The notes beneath the pieces were generated by a model that saw nothing but the letters and a program-made list of their open reading frames with translations, did not search any database and was not told the origin of the DNA. The translations under genes and the position numbers were made by a program. Positions 1-33,244 of a stretch of 64,000 bases of DNA are shown here, piece by piece. The stretch is taken from NCBI GenBank assembly GCA_016840035.1, contig JAEOTC010000030.1:1-64000 (forward strand). Reading direction: 5' to 3'. The DNA comes from Candidatus Hodarchaeota archaeon. Lineage in GTDB: Archaea > Asgardarchaeota > Heimdallarchaeia > Hodarchaeales > Hodarchaeaceae. Each line of letters opens with the position of its first letter. The first letter of the stretch is position 1.

Positions 1-125
1 GAAAGTTAAGTCAGGCTCCGTTCTGATCTGTACTGTTGTGCTCGCGCCTACGGGAAAATCAGAAAGCTGAAGGTTCTTCGGCCAAAGGGCCTGAGTCACA
101 CCCGGTCTCATTCCGAACCCGGAAA
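1..125 (+). rRNA. rrf: 5S rRNA with halves in permuted order (3' half at 1-72, 5' half at 76-125)
   Basis: Conserved 5S motifs ACACCCGGTCTCATTCCGAACCCGGAA (98-124) and AAGTTAAG (3-10). Helix I 66-72/76-82, helix II 87-94/11-18 and helix V 21-27/58-64 all base-pair. Upstream flank is outside the window. Confidence 0.88.
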
Positions 126-386
126 CAGTATCCCCTGGTGAAATAAGCGCTTTGAGATTCAAACACTTTTTGCTCCTTTTTTTACTATTCTCCCTTCTTC
201 ATTGAATTGTTTACTTTTTCGATACCGATTCTGAATTTATCCTCGAAAAACAGCTCAAAACCCTTACTATTACTTCCAAAGGTGTGCTTAGTAATCAATC
301 CTAAAATTAATTAATTTCGCAGTAAATCGTATTTTGTTATTCACAAGTTAACAATTTGAAGCTTGCAATAATTTAGGGGCACATCG

Positions 387-1298
387 ATGGTTTTTTCAAA
401 TGTAGCAAAAAGTTTTTTTGATGAATTTCCCTTTCGTCATAGAAAGAAGCTTGCTATGTCATCAGATTACTTCTTTTTGTCTCATGCGCACAGTGATCAC
501 ACAGGTGGGATTAAATCAATACTTTCCTCCCCAGATGCAACAATTGTATGTTCAAAAGAAACAGCAGCTGCACTAAAGGTTCTTCACAGAATCCCTAAAG
601 AAAAATGTTTGATAATGGAGACAAATCAATCTTTAGACTTTGATAACTTCATAGTACACGCGATTGATGCGAATCATTGCTTAGGTAGTTTAATGTTCGT
701 TGTAGAATCATCTGAAAACGAGAAAGAGGTATATACAGGAGACTTTCGTTTAGGTGCGCCTATTTTAAACGAATTGGAGCTTTTAAGCAATCCAGATCAT
801 TTATGGGTTGATTACACATATGGTAAGAATCCAAAATACATTTTCCCCTCGAGGAAGGAGCTTATCTCTGAGATCTTATCCTTAATGCTAACCGAAGGGA
901 ATTATCCACAGAAGGAAATATGGATAGCTGCCTATCAAATAGGGAAGGAAAAATTATTGAAAACAATAAGTGACGCATTAAAAGTAAAAATATATGCTCC
1001 TGAAAAGAAAGTACAAATCTATAGTGAAATAGGAGGGGATTGGGATATCTTTACTAATGATCCTGATTCAGGGATCTGTGTTGAGAGTAGAAGACGAGTT
1101 GAAAATCTTTCTGGTCTTGATCAAAGAACTGAAGAGCGTTTAATGAACTCCCTACGAATTTCCCCTACAGGATGGGCAATCGAGTTGATTACAAAAAGAT
1201 TGGACGTGCATTATTTCCCATATTCTGACCATTGCTCATATAATGAAGTTCATGAGTTTATTGAACTTGTTAATCCGCAGGAAATCACAAAAATTTAA
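387..1298 (+). CDS. MBL/beta-CASP DNA nuclease, SNM1/Pso2/Apollo-like
   Basis: Motifs HAHSDH, DANHCLGS, YTGDFR, VDYTY, YQIGKEKL, PTGW, PYSDHCS. Confidence 0.82.
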   Translation: MVFSNVAKSFFDEFPFRHRKKLAMSSDYFFLSHAHSDHTGGIKSILSSPDATIVCSKETAAALKVLHRIPKEKCLIMETNQSLDFDNFIVHAIDANHCLGSLMFVVESSENEKEVYTGDFRLGAPILNELELLSNPDHLWVDYTYGKNPKYIFPSRKELISEILSLMLTEGNYPQKEIWIAAYQIGKEKLLKTISDALKVKIYAPEKKVQIYSEIGGDWDIFTNDPDSGICVESRRRVENLSGLDQRTEERLMNSLRISPTGWAIELITKRLDVHYFPYSDHCSYNEVHEFIELVNPQEITKI

Positions 1299-1370: not shown

Positions 1371-3566
1371 TTGAATCAAATAAAACTTCGTGATATCAGG
1401 GGTATTGGGCCTTCCATTGAGAAGAGACTCGTTTCTCATTTTGGGAGCGAAAAACTAGTTCTTAATGCCTTAAGAGGATCTCGAATTGCTGAAATCTCTT
1501 CTATTGATGGAATAGGAGAGCGATTTGCACTTAGTTTATGCAGGAATTTACATTACCAGGAAACAGATGAACAAATACAAGATTTTCTGAGAACAGAGGA
1601 TACGATTCTAATTTATAACCGAATAATGGATATAATCTCGAAGTTCGGAAATACTTTCTATTCTCGCTCTAAGCTATTCTTGTACTTCCCATTACCCATT
1701 ACTGCACTAAACAAGATAAAAGAACGCCAAAAAACCACTCAACTCGGACAAGAGTTGTTCAGAACAATTGGAAATACTGTAGATTCGATTGATGAATTTG
1801 ATTCATTGTTAAAACAATTACTTCCACTAAAAGAGCACTCTGGATCAATCGATACAGCTTCACGGACTATTGCTACCACTGATAAAGGAATCTACAACGA
1901 GCTTCTCATGAGTATTGTCAGTCAGTATTGTGAAATTCAGTTCATTGAAGATTATGAAAAAATCAATGAAACCCTTGCTGGATCTGATGAGGTTATTTGG
2001 GTTGGAAGTGATTATATCATGGGTGATGAGCTTCCAAATATAATATCTATTCCAGAGTCACAAAGACATGATATGAATCGAATTCTCCCCGAAAAATCCT
2101 TGACATTTTTCGCTCAGAATAAAAATACCCTTGTAACTATAGCTAAACTCGCATCTTTACTCCGTAAAATTTCATCTGAGAAATTGACGAGTTTTATCGG
2201 GGATTTAGACTTAGGTATGTTAATTAACCTAGGAGAAGAGGTTAAGAATTTAGAAGAAACTGGGGAACCGAGTTCTAGTCTCAACTCAGAGTTTTCACGA
2301 GTTTTAACTGCAGAAAGATCGTTCGAAATGGTGTTAGAAGAAGTTCTACTCTCAGTGAATGAAGAATTAGAACAAAAACTTCAGGACACTACTATTCATT
2401 TAGAAGGTGAAAAAATCCTTGCTCTCCTAAAAGGTCTTTCTAATGAAGATCAGGGGTATTCTGCTAATTCCAGTCGTGAGGATTTACGTGAATATTTAGA
2501 TGATGAATTGTTTTTAGCTGTAGAAGAGATAATAAGTAATGCTGAAACTAAACTTGCCTCAAAACTTAATTTATCGAGCGAGGAAATCGATTATTTAACT
2601 GGAATCTTTCCCCGCGAGCTAAAGTTTCCTATTGATCCATTAGACGATATTAAGAATAGATTCACTGACTTCATTCGTAGGAAACGTTCTAGTAGAGCAT
2701 TTGAACTCAAAGTTGAGTTAGCTCAAAAACTTCAAGAATATGAACGCGTAGCTGTTGATGGTCTCCATTTTATGTTGGAATTAGATTATCTATTAATGAT
2801 CGGGAAGTTCGCTGGGAGTTATAATCTCTCTTTACCAACATTTGTTGAAGGTCAAGGAACTGGAGTATACTTTCGTAATGGTAAAAATCTTTTTTTAGCC
2901 CATCAAGAGCTGAGAGGTCAGTTGAGAGTCGAACCAGTCTCTTATGCTCTTGGTGAACTTGGGAGAGTTGAAGGTGGAGCTAGTGGAGAACGTATTGTAC
3001 TCTTATCAGGAGCGAATAGCGGTGGTAAAACAACCCTACTTGTAGCTATTGCTGTTATTGTTATTCTTAGCCAAATGGGATTACCAGTTCCATGTCAAGA
3101 CGCAAGAATTGGTGGTTTCAAGGAGTTACATTACTATCGGAAGTCTTCTGGGCATATGAACGCCGGAGCATTCGAATCCACACTTCGTATTCTCTCTAAA
3201 ATGATTATGAGTCCGAATTCACGACTAGTCCTTGCAGATGAGATGGAGAGCATTTCAGAACCTGGAGCCTCTGCAAGGGTAATAGCAGCATTTTTAGATT
3301 TACTGGGAAGATCGACTGATTCTGTTGGAATATTTGTAACCCATCTTGCCCAAGAGATAAGTAAATATACAAAAGAGAATCTACGAATTGACGGGATAGA
3401 AGCGAGGGGCCTTTCAGAAAATTTGGAGCTTATTGTTGACAGAACTCCCAAATATCACAAATATGCGAAGTCTACTCCTGAATTAATAGTACAACGATTA
3501 CAGCGTATCTCAAAAGGCTCTGAAAAAGATATCTATTCTTATATATTGGAGGCCTTTGATTCTTAA
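1371..3566 (+). CDS. Archaeal MutS-family ATPase with N-terminal helix-hairpin-helix
   Basis: HhH motifs (IRGIGP, IDGIGE); Walker A GANSGGKT; AGAFE; LVLADEMESISEPGA; FVTH. Confidence 0.85.
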   Translation: MNQIKLRDIRGIGPSIEKRLVSHFGSEKLVLNALRGSRIAEISSIDGIGERFALSLCRNLHYQETDEQIQDFLRTEDTILIYNRIMDIISKFGNTFYSRSKLFLYFPLPITALNKIKERQKTTQLGQELFRTIGNTVDSIDEFDSLLKQLLPLKEHSGSIDTASRTIATTDKGIYNELLMSIVSQYCEIQFIEDYEKINETLAGSDEVIWVGSDYIMGDELPNIISIPESQRHDMNRILPEKSLTFFAQNKNTLVTIAKLASLLRKISSEKLTSFIGDLDLGMLINLGEEVKNLEETGEPSSSLNSEFSRVLTAERSFEMVLEEVLLSVNEELEQKLQDTTIHLEGEKILALLKGLSNEDQGYSANSSREDLREYLDDELFLAVEEIISNAETKLASKLNLSSEEIDYLTGIFPRELKFPIDPLDDIKNRFTDFIRRKRSSRAFELKVELAQKLQEYERVAVDGLHFMLELDYLLMIGKFAGSYNLSLPTFVEGQGTGVYFRNGKNLFLAHQELRGQLRVEPVSYALGELGRVEGGASGERIVLLSGANSGGKTTLLVAIAVIVILSQMGLPVPCQDARIGGFKELHYYRKSSGHMNAGAFESTLRILSKMIMSPNSRLVLADEMESISEPGASARVIAAFLDLLGRSTDSVGIFVTHLAQEISKYTKENLRIDGIEARGLSENLELIVDRTPKYHKYAKSTPELIVQRLQRISKGSEKDIYSYILEAFDS

Positions 3567-30740: not shown

Positions 30741-32612
30741 CTATTGCCATAGAATAGCTAAATTATCATCTTGGAATGCTCGTTGAAAGATTTTAGCACT
30801 TTCACTATTAGTTCCTAACTTAATTTTTCCAGATTTTGATGTGGTTGCGGTGAAAAACTCGACTGGGAAGGAATCTTGAGACTCCTGGTAGAAAAAGCTG
30901 ATATCTTTATTTTTTAATCGTTTAGGAAAATTGATTGTAATCGTCCGTTTTTGAAAAGCAATATTTTGTCGTTTAAGATGGCTCAATCTTGAATTGCTAA
31001 GTTTGGTAGGAGATTTATTTACATCAAGTTTGATTCTCAAAATTCTCTCAAGCATCTTTATAGTTGTCCCTTTCTGGCCAATAATAAGAGGTATATCTTC
31101 TTCATGGGCATGTATTACAAATCGATGCCCAAACTTATCTTTGGGAACAATTTCAACTGATTGGGTTGTGTATTGTTCAACTACCTCCTTTATCTCGGAA
31201 ATCTGTTCGTAATTTACTTTTTTCGTGCTTTTATGTGATTCTTCTAATGGAATCACTACGGTTTGTTCCCCAAATGTGTACATCTCATAAACAATGTTGT
31301 CAGTCAAAAAATCACGCACTTCAACAACTGGTCGTGCAAGATCACTTTCAACTAACCCTGATGGAACCTTCACAGTCATCTTGACTTCGAGAATTGTTTG
31401 TATTTGGCCAGAATCAATATATAATATTGTATCAAGGACACTAGGAATTACTCCTAATTCAAGTTTGCCGATGAATCTTTGTATGGCATCTATAGCGGTA
31501 CTCGAATGAATAACTCCAATTAGACCAATTCCAGCTAAACGCAGATCTGTGTATAGTCGAAAGTCATCGTGATCTCTGATTTCATCAAATATAGTATAAT
31601 CGGGTCTTGATAATAAGAGAATATCGTGAATTTCTGAATGCGTACCAAAATTCTTCGAATATTGTGTAATCTCTGCCTTTAAATCAAGATCTCTGGGGGA
31701 TTCAATTGTTTTGATGATTTTGCCCTTTTCATAATAGAATAGTGCTAATGCTCTTGTAAAGGTAGTTTTTCCTGCACCAGGACTCCCTGCGACCAAGATC
31801 CCCTCAGCTTTTTCTTCAAGGCGCTGTATTAAACGTGATTCTAGTTCATATTCCTCTAATGCCATCCTTTTCAATGGACGAACCGCAGTAATTTCCCACC
31901 CATCTGAAAACGGAGGACGGATTATCACAATGCGTCTATCCTCAAACTGAACAATTGTCGAATTTTCTCTGGCTATTTCGATAAATGTATCAGGAAAGAA
32001 ATTCGCTTTTTCGATGATATCCTCAGCAAACTCAACTATCGTACTTTTGGAAATAATTTCAGAAGAAAATTGTGTAAATCGAATACTACCCGGTTTTCCT
32101 TTTTTTACGAACACATTTGTACCTTGTTTGATGTGAATGCTCATTGTTTCATTATCAAAAAATTTATCAATTTTCAATTGTTTATCAAGTTGTTTTATCA
32201 GTCTTGGTTCGACATATATGGTTTCTACTCCCATTGATTGAGCACTCATATCTTGAATCTTATCCGAAGTAACAAGAATGCCTCCTTCTTTCCATGCTAA
32301 TTCACGAATTAATGCATCGATCTCTCCCAGTTCAAATTGGCGTGGTTTTCTTCCTGCTACAGAAAATATAACATCGTTTTCTTCACAGATGGATTTTATT
32401 AGTTTAAGCTCTTGGAAACCTTCAGTTCCCTTTTTTTTTTCTTGGTTTGCCTGATTTTCGAGCTCTAAAATAAGTGCAAGATGGATAATCACAGATGATC
32501 CTGGAAGAATTTGATCATTTTCAATTAAATTCCTTAATCCTCCATTAATGACCGTAGAAGTGTCTGGAATGTAGCGATTCTGTTCTGAATCGATATTATA
32601 TCTTCCTACCAT
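30741..32612 (-). CDS. PIN-domain P-loop ATPase with KH domain (PINA family)
   Basis: PIN motif IPDTS...ELENQAN; GSPGAGKTT; RPDYTIFDEIR; KH IIGQKG. Confidence 0.9.
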   Translation of the reverse strand: MVGRYNIDSEQNRYIPDTSTVINGGLRNLIENDQILPGSSVIIHLALILELENQANQEKKKGTEGFQELKLIKSICEENDVIFSVAGRKPRQFELGEIDALIRELAWKEGGILVTSDKIQDMSAQSMGVETIYVEPRLIKQLDKQLKIDKFFDNETMSIHIKQGTNVFVKKGKPGSIRFTQFSSEIISKSTIVEFAEDIIEKANFFPDTFIEIARENSTIVQFEDRRIVIIRPPFSDGWEITAVRPLKRMALEEYELESRLIQRLEEKAEGILVAGSPGAGKTTFTRALALFYYEKGKIIKTIESPRDLDLKAEITQYSKNFGTHSEIHDILLLSRPDYTIFDEIRDHDDFRLYTDLRLAGIGLIGVIHSSTAIDAIQRFIGKLELGVIPSVLDTILYIDSGQIQTILEVKMTVKVPSGLVESDLARPVVEVRDFLTDNIVYEMYTFGEQTVVIPLEESHKSTKKVNYEQISEIKEVVEQYTTQSVEIVPKDKFGHRFVIHAHEEDIPLIIGQKGTTIKMLERILRIKLDVNKSPTKLSNSRLSHLKRQNIAFQKRTITINFPKRLKNKDISFFYQESQDSFPVEFFTATTSKSGKIKLGTNSESAKIFQRAFQDDNLAILWQ

Positions 32613-33244
32613 CAGATTTCCTCCTCCTCAATGTTATTAGACGGAGAAAACTCATCTTTAAATTCATATTCTAGGTTATTATACTCTAGCTCTAATTGAG
32701 AAGCTTGGTAGTATGTGACATCTCCCAACCTATCAATAACAGATAAAAGTAACTTTTTTCTATCAATCTTTGCCTGTTTTACAATTTGATCAAGCAAATC
32801 GAGATCAACGTCCTCACCTTCAGGAAGCGGATAAATCACGGTTTTACTTACAGATTCTCCAGGTTTACCCCCTCTTGAGTATATTCTGAACGGAGCAGTT
32901 ATTCGAGTGCCAATACTTACCACATATCCTCGATTGCGTAAATCTTTGTAAACTAAATATCGACTCCAAAATTTAGGGTTGAGTTTTGTGAAATGAACCA
33001 CTAGTTCATCTGTGGAAAGAGTTTCTCCCGTTTTTTCTGTTTCTAATACAATCCTCCCTCTATCTAAAAGTAATAATATTTCCTCAGGTTCTAAATATAA
33101 TGTCTCCTCTGAACTCCAACGGCCAAAATACCCATTTTCAAAAATTTCAGTAGCTAGTGGTTTGTTTAATTGTAGCTGAGACATGGACAGACTAAAAGGT
33201 ATAGATGGTGGAGATTCATCTTTGGATGATGGTTCTATTGTCAT
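32612..33244 (-). CDS. endA: tRNA-intron endonuclease subunit (possibly non-catalytic)
   Basis: YLVYKDLRNRGYVV, FRIYSRG, RKKLLL, GDVTYY; no His at the expected catalytic position. Confidence 0.85.
   Translation of the reverse strand: MTIEPSSKDESPPSIPFSLSMSQLQLNKPLATEIFENGYFGRWSSEETLYLEPEEILLLLDRGRIVLETEKTGETLSTDELVVHFTKLNPKFWSRYLVYKDLRNRGYVVSIGTRITAPFRIYSRGGKPGESVSKTVIYPLPEGEDVDLDLLDQIVKQAKIDRKKLLLSVIDRLGDVTYYQASQLELEYNNLEYEFKDEFSPSNNIEEEEI

What the first reader, a model, noticed from the sequence alone, without database searches (positions are those of the whole stretch)
1..135. 5S rRNA gene in circularly permuted order with a candidate bulge-helix-bulge at the break
Seen in sequence: the 3' half of 5S rRNA (AAGTTAAG...GCTGAAG, 1-72) comes before the 5' half (CTTCGGCC...CCGAACCCGGAA, 76-125). 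The normal termini are joined by only GTT (73-75), so helix I (66-72/76-82) becomes a closed hairpin. Helices II and V still pair across the halves. After 125 the sequence leaves 5S (CAGTATCCCC) exactly where AGTTAAG should follow. Both break ends read G-AAA, and GTT (5-7) can pair with AAC (116-118). This is the geometry of a BHB: helix CCGG (119-122) with AAA bulges at 2-4 and 123-125. Established: archaeal EndA plus RtcB cut and ligate BHBs, permuted tRNA genes exist (Thermofilum), and 16S/23S precursors circularise via BHB. Inference: this 5S may be transcribed permuted and spliced into a circle (junction CCGGAAAGUUAAG, one A more than the usual AA bulge) that stays circular or is reopened at the GUU loop. 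I do not know of a described genome-encoded permuted 5S gene. The alternatives are a normal gene followed by a truncated tandem copy, or a contig-end assembly artefact.
Basis: partly seen in the sequence, partly recalled or inferred. Interest (0 to 1): 0.9.

Follow-up and report, generated by a model that had tools for sequence, protein, structure and literature searches.

The report
Back-to-front 5S rRNA gene, Asgard
This Hodarchaeales-type Asgard archaeon encodes its only detectable 5S ribosomal RNA back half first, between tRNA-splicing-type cut signals, so a normal 5S can form only if the transcript is cut and its ends re-joined, most likely into a 120-base ring; this explains why 5S genes look "missing" in these relatives of eukaryotes.

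Summary
Window 1-125 holds a complete 5S rRNA in swapped order: 3' part at 5-72, a GTT cap at 73-75, 5' part at 76-124.

The window starts a contig. Another contig of the same genome ends with the identical 127 bases and supplies the upstream sequence. That sequence has no 5S 5' half.

Leader and trailer form a bulge-helix-bulge (BHB) motif. Cutting two bases 3' of the central helix on each strand and joining the ends gives CCGGAA|GUUAAG, the canonical 5S sequence.

- The same layout is full length in 75 of 83 genomes of the class and in most other Asgard families sampled.
- Canonical 5S (Rfam) is found in Thorarchaeota and a few other families instead.
- Compensatory changes support every helix, including the leader/trailer stem and the BHB central helix.
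- EndA (two paralogs) and RtcB are present in this genome.
- No RNA data could be obtained, so cutting, joining and the final form (ring or reopened) are inferred.

This scan has reported the same feature before on other DNA: 188 notes in at least 111 genomes. No paper describing it was found.

The parts
1..4 (+). Last bases of the leader. G1 and A2 are positions 3-4 of the 5' strand of the BHB central helix (C-2, C-1, G1, A2 pairing with C119-G122; A2.C119 is a mismatch here and G-C in half of the genus). A3 and A4 are the first two bases of the 5' bulge. The predicted cut is after A4. The rest of the leader lies on contig C28: outer helix 5' strand at L002:1490-1498 and a TATA-like box at L002:1400-1411.
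5..72 (+). 3' part of 5S rRNA: GUUAAG (lower helix III / loop B), 3' strand of helix II (11-18), helices V and IV with loop E (21-64), and 3' strand of helix I (66-72).
73..75 (+). GTT cap joining the native 3' and 5' ends of 5S, which closes helix I (66-72 with 76-82) into a hairpin.
   Evidence: In other lineages the cap is often UUCG or a longer hairpin.
76..124 (+). 5' part of 5S rRNA: 5' strand of helix I (76-82), 5' strand of helix II (87-94), helix III (102-105 with 119-122), loop C (106-118) and the AA bulge (123-124). The predicted 3' cut is after A124.
119..125 (+). 3' half of the BHB: CCGG, the 3' strand of the central helix (119-122), and the 3-base bulge AAA (123-125).
126..134 (+). 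Trailer strand of the outer BHB helix. CAGTATC (126-132) pairs with leader GATATTG, with one U.G pair at 128.
   Evidence: (all 9 pairs show changes on both sides within the genus)
135..164 (+). Distal trailer, which pairs with the distal leader in the predicted precursor fold: AGCGC 146-150 with leader GCGCU, and UGAGAUU-CAAAC 153-164 with leader GUUUG-AAUCUCA. Together they form a long processing stem.
   Evidence: minimum-energy folds of -45..165 and -75..185
167..183 (+). Two T runs (167-171 and 177-183), a likely archaeal transcription stop for the roughly 250-nt precursor.
   Evidence: inference from the known oligo-T terminators of archaea
32612..33244 (-). EndA paralog, 210 aa, with both tRNA-intron endonuclease domains but Ser where the catalytic His should be. 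It is probably the structural subunit. The catalytic paralog (182 aa) lies just past the window end at C112:63977-64525.

Best explanation
This is the genome's only detectable 5S rRNA gene, written in circularly permuted order. It has its own TATA-type promoter about 100 bp upstream and T-run stops downstream, and gives a precursor of about 250 nt. Leader and trailer pair into a long processing stem. The inner end of that stem is a BHB motif: an outer helix (leader GAUAUUG with trailer CAGUAUC), a 3-base bulge AAA (123-125), a 4-position central helix (leader CCGA with CCGG 119-122) and a 5' bulge AAG (3-5). The splicing endonuclease EndA cuts after the second base of each bulge, that is after A4 and after A124. 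The RNA ligase RtcB joins A124 to G5. The product is a 120-nt covalently closed RNA. In it helix III, its AA bulge and GUUAAG have the canonical sequence, and helix I is capped by GUU. Shown here: the permuted order, the absence of any canonical gene, the conserved and covarying BHB and stem, the exact restoration of the canonical sequence by the BHB rule, and the presence of both enzymes. Inferred: the cutting, the joining and the final form. I rate cut-and-join at about 0.78. Given a ring, I rate its persistence as the mature 5S at roughly 0.55.
For: The upstream sequence from the overlapping contig shows no 5' half and does show the predicted complement. R1, the covariance model of the permuted layout, matches full length in 20 of 21 other genomes of the genus, in 75 of 83 genomes of the class, and in 20 of 27 families of a 151-genome phylum sample. 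RF00001 clears its cut-off in Thorarchaeota (26/26) and five other families. In the permuted families it clears it only once, at 38.4 bits, and that hit is spurious. In near-complete genomes of the genus (G010, G008, G012) and in the 70%-complete single-contig G016, RF00001 finds only fragments of at most 20.8 bits, at or immediately flanking the permuted locus. Within the genus, all 9 outer-stem pairs and 3 helix-I pairs show changes on both sides, and 96.9% of cells pair. Phylum-wide, 40 of 42 pairs do, including all 4 pairs of the central helix: 94.5% of cells pair, against 59% after shuffling and at most 46% after sliding the partners. The central helix changes together with the 5' strand of helix III (CCGG/CCGG, CUGG/CCAG, CCGC/GCGG, CAGG/CCUG, CGUG/CACG). 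An unsupervised search finds a strict BHB in 27 of 33 loci and a relaxed one in the other 6. The cut rule always gives GGAA|GU(U/C)AAG or GGA|AGUUAAG. After rotation, 26 of those 27 predicted products align to canonical Asgard 5S with no indel at the joint. The predicted ring folds into the standard three-arm 5S structure. Two EndA paralogs and RtcB are present. In public metagenome contigs, 7 carry the permuted 3' site and none carries the canonical-order joint. Wu et al. 2022 could not predict 5S genes in closed Heimdallarchaeum genomes (PMC8813620).
Against: In this genome the central helix has an A.C mismatch and the inner helix is weak (G5-U7 with A116-C118). The minimum-energy fold pairs the leader CCG with 103-105 instead of 120-122. 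The genome is 87% complete, so absence of a canonical gene rests on relatives. The phylum-wide alignment was fitted to the model, which favours its pairs.
Confidence: 0.78

Rival explanations
1. The ring is only an intermediate. After BHB cutting and joining, an unknown nuclease opens the cap of helix I (73-75), and the ribosome carries an ordinary linear 5S of about 117-120 nt. Permuted tRNA genes and circular pre-16S/23S are handled this way.
For: Known archaeal rRNA rings are mostly treated as intermediates (PMC12918454; PMC7758197). Permuted tRNAs of C. merolae are reopened (cited in PMC4267664). Helix I in this genome is short (7-8 bp).
Against: The caps share no motif. They are often UUCG-type tetraloops or extended hairpins of up to about 45 nt, which looks like structural capping rather than a cleavage site. 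No enzyme is known for such a cut.
Confidence: 0.15
2. The ends are never joined. The ribosome uses a permuted linear 5S with its ends at the AA bulge of helix III, either untrimmed or cut by EndA without ligation. This would resemble the permuted mitochondrial 5S of brown algae, which is permuted in the final product.
For: Valach et al. 2014 show that a 5S permuted in the mature RNA can work (PMC4267664). No junction reads were obtained here.
Against: A covarying BHB, with cut sites that leave exactly the canonical bases, is conserved across the phylum. RtcB is present, and the BHB-excised archaeal RNAs whose fate has been studied, such as SRP RNA and pre-rRNAs, are joined (PMC4731332). The break sits in a conserved helix, not at an open junction.
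Confidence: 0.06
3. This is not a working gene. It is an assembly artefact at a contig end, or the remnant of a tandem pair (a normal gene plus a truncated copy), or a pseudogene.
For: The window starts inside the gene, and the contig breaks exactly there.
Against: The upstream sequence is known and lacks a 5' half. Both flanks are syntenic with single contigs of relatives. The layout is mid-contig in closed genomes and conserved with compensatory changes. No other 5S exists in near-complete relatives.
Confidence: 0.01

Closest known systems
Permuted SRP RNA gene of Thermoproteus tenax (Plagens et al. 2015, eLife, PMC4731332)
   Same: Both are essential structured non-coding RNAs encoded in swapped order, which standard gene finders miss. 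[quoted passage not shown]
   Different: That case is SRP RNA, in one crenarchaeal genus, and is proven by RNA-seq, Northern blot and in vitro cleavage.
Circularly permuted tRNA genes (Cyanidioschyzon merolae, Soma et al. 2007, cited in PMC4267664; Thermofilum pendens, from my own knowledge)
   Same: In both, the 3' half precedes the 5' half, the native ends are linked by a short spacer, a BHB forms at the new termini, and expression goes through a circular intermediate.
   Different: The tRNA ring is reopened at the native ends by RNase P and tRNase Z. For the 5S no reopening signal is visible, and the caps look structural.
BHB processing stems of archaeal 16S and 23S pre-rRNA, and the circularly permuted 23S of Pyrococcus furiosus (PMC7758197; PMC12918454)
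   Same: Both have a leader/trailer stem carrying a BHB, with EndA cutting and RtcB joining to give rRNA rings.
   Different: Those genes are colinear, and any permutation arises after transcription. The Background of PMC12918454 states that 5S is not processed this way. Here the gene itself is permuted, so joining is needed to rebuild helix III.
Permuted mitochondrial 5S rRNA of brown algae (Valach et al. 2014, PMC4267664; Rfam mtPerm-5S)
   Same: It is a natural 5S rRNA whose helix I is a closed hairpin.
   Different: Those are organellar. The ends lie at the three-way junction, there is no BHB and no joining, and the RNA is permuted in its final form. No Rfam family, including that one, reaches its cut-off on these loci.

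Membership tests
5S rRNA (Rfam RF00001) | Score at or above the 38-bit gathering cut-off on the gene as encoded | tested here: not met
   23 bits for window 1-75 and 20.8 bits for window 74-158. There is no hit at gathering level. This is expected for a permuted gene.
5S rRNA (Rfam RF00001) | Three-arm fold with helices I-V, and conserved loop C and GUUAAG / GUACUG / GGGAA motifs, in the mature RNA | tested here: met
   The predicted ring (G5-A124) and the rotated linear form both fold into the standard structure. Rotated products align colinearly with canonical Asgard 5S that score 77-85 bits. All helices covary.
5S rRNA (Rfam RF00001) | Rfam score of the re-ordered sequence | not testable with these tools
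   cmscan accepts only the window or fetched loci, and Infernal is not available in the script box.
BHB substrate of archaeal splicing endonuclease (hBHBh') | Two 3-base bulges on opposite strands, separated by a 4-bp helix | tested here: met
   Bulges are A3-A4-G5 and A123-A125, and the central helix is CCGA/CCGG. In this genome that is 3 pairs plus an A.C mismatch; in 8 of 16 aligned genus members it is 4 pairs. A strict motif is found in 27 of 33 loci across the phylum.
BHB substrate of archaeal splicing endonuclease (hBHBh') | Flanking helices on both sides | tested here: inconclusive
   The outer helix is 7 bp here and 5-15 bp elsewhere, with all pairs covarying. The inner helix is only G5-U7 with A116-C118 and competes with the mature fold.
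BHB substrate of archaeal splicing endonuclease (hBHBh') | Actual cleavage by EndA | not testable with these tools
   The enzymes are encoded, but no biochemical test was possible.
Permuted RNA genes expressed through a ring (Thermoproteus SRP RNA, permuted tRNAs) | Swapped gene order, with the native ends linked and a BHB at the new ends | tested here: met
Permuted RNA genes expressed through a ring (Thermoproteus SRP RNA, permuted tRNAs) | Junction-spanning RNA reads or RNase R resistance | not testable with these tools
A scan of metagenome contigs for the joint found none.
Brown-algal permuted mitochondrial 5S (mtPerm-5S) | Match to the Rfam model, with ends at the three-way junction | tested here: not met
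   No Rfam family reaches its cut-off on 10 permuted loci. The break here is in helix III.

The most novel reading that the evidence does not exclude
The covalently closed 120-nt ring is itself the 5S rRNA of the working ribosome in Hodarchaeales and in most other Asgard archaea. If so, the lineage closest to eukaryotes depends on the tRNA-splicing machinery to make an essential, circular ribosomal RNA.
Probability: 0.42. Interest if true: 0.92.

Novelty: new variant of a known kind. Interest (0 to 1): 0.85.

Why it matters
It resolves a practical puzzle. 5S rRNA genes "could not be predicted" in closed Heimdallarchaeum genomes (PMC8813620). Rfam-based annotation misses them in most Asgard genomes, which also affects genome-quality standards that ask for a 5S gene. 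A covariance model of the permuted layout finds them at once.

Biologically, it would be the first cellular rRNA gene that needs splicing-type cutting and joining to gain its fold. It may also be the first ring-shaped 5S in a ribosome. It occurs in the archaeal group nearest to eukaryotes. The split between permuted genes (Heimdall/Hod, Odin, Jord, Baldr and Atabey groups and others) and canonical genes (Thor) is a discrete character that could be useful for Asgard phylogeny.

It is directly testable with outward-facing RT-PCR, RNase R treatment, or a ribosome structure from the cultured Asgard strains.

Tried and rejected
- **Scan for the joint:** a scan of JGI metagenome contigs for the predicted joint in the genus's own sequence found nothing. 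The control pattern for the permuted 3' site found 7 contigs. This argues against a canonical-order copy but says nothing about RNA.
- **Poor patterns:** my first genome contigs pattern was too loose and mostly hit bacteria by chance; only its Asgard titles were useful. The pattern had a wrong gap length and found one chance hit. It was corrected.
- **Alternative pairings:** RNAalifold and the minimum-energy fold pair the leader CCG with 103-105 and form a small hairpin at 111-124. I prefer the BHB register because the leader bases covary with 119-122 across lineages, but both folds may form.
- **A spurious canonical hit:** one RF00001 hit cleared the cut-off in a permuted family (G067, 38.4 bits). 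On inspection it was a 5' half followed by unrelated flank, not a canonical gene.
- **Rejected readings:** the tandem-remnant and artefact readings fail.
- **Literature:** searches for a described permuted or circular archaeal 5S found none.

Full report
**What is in the sequence**

A 5S 3' part comes first, a GTT linker follows at 73-75, then a 5S 5' part, and 5S-like sequence ends after 125. Rfam matches window 1-75 to 5S model positions 48-120 at 23 bits, marked as cut at the 5' end. It gives window 74-158, which covers the 5' part, a 20.8-bit sub-threshold alignment. Neither reaches the 38-bit cut-off, and no 5S is found anywhere in the genome at that level.

**Upstream sequence and the artefact question**

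The window is the start of contig C112. Its first 127 bases are identical to the last 127 bases of contig C28 of the same genome, which is a de Bruijn k-mer overlap. C28 therefore supplies the upstream sequence. It reads ...GAGATATTG-CC, then G1 of the window.

There is no 5S 5' half upstream. GATATTG is the complement of trailer CAGTATC (126-132), with one U.G pair. Both flanks are colinear with single contigs of two close relatives, so the C28-C112 join is real. A TATA-like box (AAATATATAAAG, about -101 to -90) is conserved in 14 relatives. T runs follow at 167-183. The unit therefore has its own promoter and stop.

**Conservation**

BLAST finds the same colinear layout in 19 of 21 genomes of the genus. 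I built a covariance model, R1, of leader stem plus permuted 5S plus trailer stem (145 positions, 42 pairs). Its results are:

- full-length matches in 20 of 21 other genomes of the genus;
- full-length matches in 75 of 83 genomes of the class, covering six of its seven sampled families (none in the one f6 genome) and two closed genomes with two copies each;
- matches in 20 of 27 families of a 151-genome sample of the phylum.

On the same sample, Rfam's canonical 5S model gives the complementary picture. It clears its cut-off in family f11 (26/26), f17 (17/19), f20, f15, f27 and f28. In the permuted families it clears it once, at 38.4 bits in G067. That hit turned out to be a 5' half plus unrelated flank.

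In near-complete genomes of the genus (G010, G008, G012) and in the 70%-complete single-contig G016, the canonical model finds only fragments of at most 20.8 bits, at or immediately flanking the permuted locus.

Record titles name the groups:

- The genus is labelled Candidatus Hodarchaeota, Heimdallarchaeota or Promethearchaeota.
- Permuted genes also occur in Odinarchaeia, Jordarchaeia, Baldrarchaeum, Asgardarchaeum and two complete Atabeyarchaeia chromosomes.
- The canonical family f11 is Thorarchaeota.

**Structure and covariation**

Within the genus plus one sister family (16 sequences), 96.9% of cells pair. All 9 leader/trailer pairs show changes on both sides, as do 3 pairs of the capped helix I. 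No shuffle out of 500 reaches the observed values.

Across 34 loci from 21 families, 40 of 42 pairs show compensatory changes, including all four pairs of the BHB central helix. Here 94.5% of cells pair, against 59% after shuffling and at most 46% after sliding the partners. That alignment was fitted to the model, which favours its pairs.

The central helix changes together with the 5' strand of helix III: CCGG/CCGG, CUGG/CCAG, CCGC/GCGG, CAGG/CCUG and CGUG/CACG. This is what one expects if the leader competes for the same partner strand.

**The BHB and its product**

In this genome the motif has four elements:

- an outer helix from -9..-3 pairing with 126-132;
- a 3' bulge at A123-A125;
- a central helix of C-2, C-1, G1, A2 pairing with C119-G122, where A2.C119 is a mismatch here and G-C in half of the genus;
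- a 5' bulge at A3-A4-G5.

From established knowledge of archaeal tRNA introns, EndA cuts after the second base of each 3-base bulge. That rule gives an RNA from G5 to A124, 120 nt long. Joining its ends gives CCGGAA|GUUAAG.

An unsupervised search over 33 loci found a strict motif in 27: an outer helix of 5-15 contiguous pairs, 3-base bulges and a 4-position central helix. It found a relaxed motif in the other 6. The exact joint shifts by one base between lineages (GGAA|GUUAAG or GGA|AGUUAAG), but the product is the same. After rotation, 26 of those 27 predicted products align with canonical Asgard 5S with no indel at the joint. The predicted ring folds into the standard three-arm 5S.

**Enzymes**

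The genome encodes RtcB (553 bits) and two EndA paralogs, both on this contig. One is 182 aa and keeps the Tyr and His context (YRRGPGIDH). The other, at window 32612-33244, is 210 aa and has Ser at the His position. This suggests a catalytic plus structural pair. From my own knowledge, that type tolerates relaxed BHBs.

**What is not shown**

Public metagenome contigs hold 7 permuted loci of this genus and no contig with the joint. Cutting, joining and the final form are therefore inferences.

The caps of helix I share no motif. They are often UUCG tetraloops or longer hairpins. This fits a structural cap that stays closed better than it fits a cleavage site, so I lean towards a persistent ring, though only at about even odds.

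**Literature and earlier notes**

The only permuted 5S described is the brown-algal mitochondrial one, which is permuted differently and is not joined (PMC4267664). The closest known mechanism is the permuted, circular SRP RNA of Thermoproteus (PMC4731332). A 2026 paper on archaeal rRNA rings states in its Background that 5S is not processed by circularisation (PMC12918454). Wu et al. 2022 reported that 5S genes could not be predicted in closed Heimdallarchaeum genomes (PMC8813620).

This scan has noted the same feature before in at least 111 other genomes. Some of those notes claim junction reads in environmental RNA. I could not test that claim and do not count it as evidence.

Noticed in passing
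L176:1501-1690 (G001) and L022 (G017), same genus: These two species carry a 30-nt insert in loop C of the permuted 5S, between CCGAA and CCCGG. It is flanked by a BHB-like motif: central helix UCCG/CGGG, bulges AAA and AAC, and an inner hairpin AUGAAG/CUUCAU. The usual cut rule would remove exactly 30 nt and restore the canonical loop C, so this is a likely mini-intron inside the permuted gene.
   Followed up: partly
L158:1154-1304 (G009): A degenerate second copy of the permuted gene (37.6 bits against 166 bits) lies about 350 nt upstream of the intact one. Its 3' part is recognisable and its 5' part has decayed. It is probably a pseudogene left by a duplication.
   Followed up: no
L167:1344-1483 and 1501-1640 (G023, WAPZ01000510.1); G067 contigs C77, C90, C106, C132: G023 has two permuted copies in tandem, 17 nt apart, with different leader/trailer stems: one strict BHB and one relaxed. 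G067 has at least two copies of an identical 140-nt unit with different flanks, and its contigs break at the gene.
   Followed up: partly
window 1-127 and G000:C28:147048-147174: The two contigs of this genome overlap by exactly 127 identical bases, which contain nearly the whole gene. Several relatives (G004, G017, G018) also have contigs ending inside the gene. This fits conserved rRNA sequence shared between co-assembled strains breaking the assembly graph.
   Followed up: partly
window 32612-33244 (-) and C112:63977-64525 (-): There are two EndA paralogs, 25% identical, on the same contig as the 5S gene. The one inside the window lacks the catalytic His.
   Followed up: partly
window 387-1298 (+) and 1371-3566 (+): The genes next to the 5S unit are a metallo-beta-lactamase/DRMBL-fold protein (303 aa) and a 731-aa protein with a MutS domain V and a helix-hairpin-helix domain. 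This neighbourhood is syntenic in the genus.
   Followed up: no
L202:101-272 (G197, family f14) and L203 / L244 (Atabeyarchaeia-1, CP147779.1): G197 has an insert of about 45 nt in the cap of helix I. In Atabeyarchaeia-1 my search found only a 4-bp outer helix and a 4-base 3' bulge, so its processing motif is atypical.
   Followed up: no
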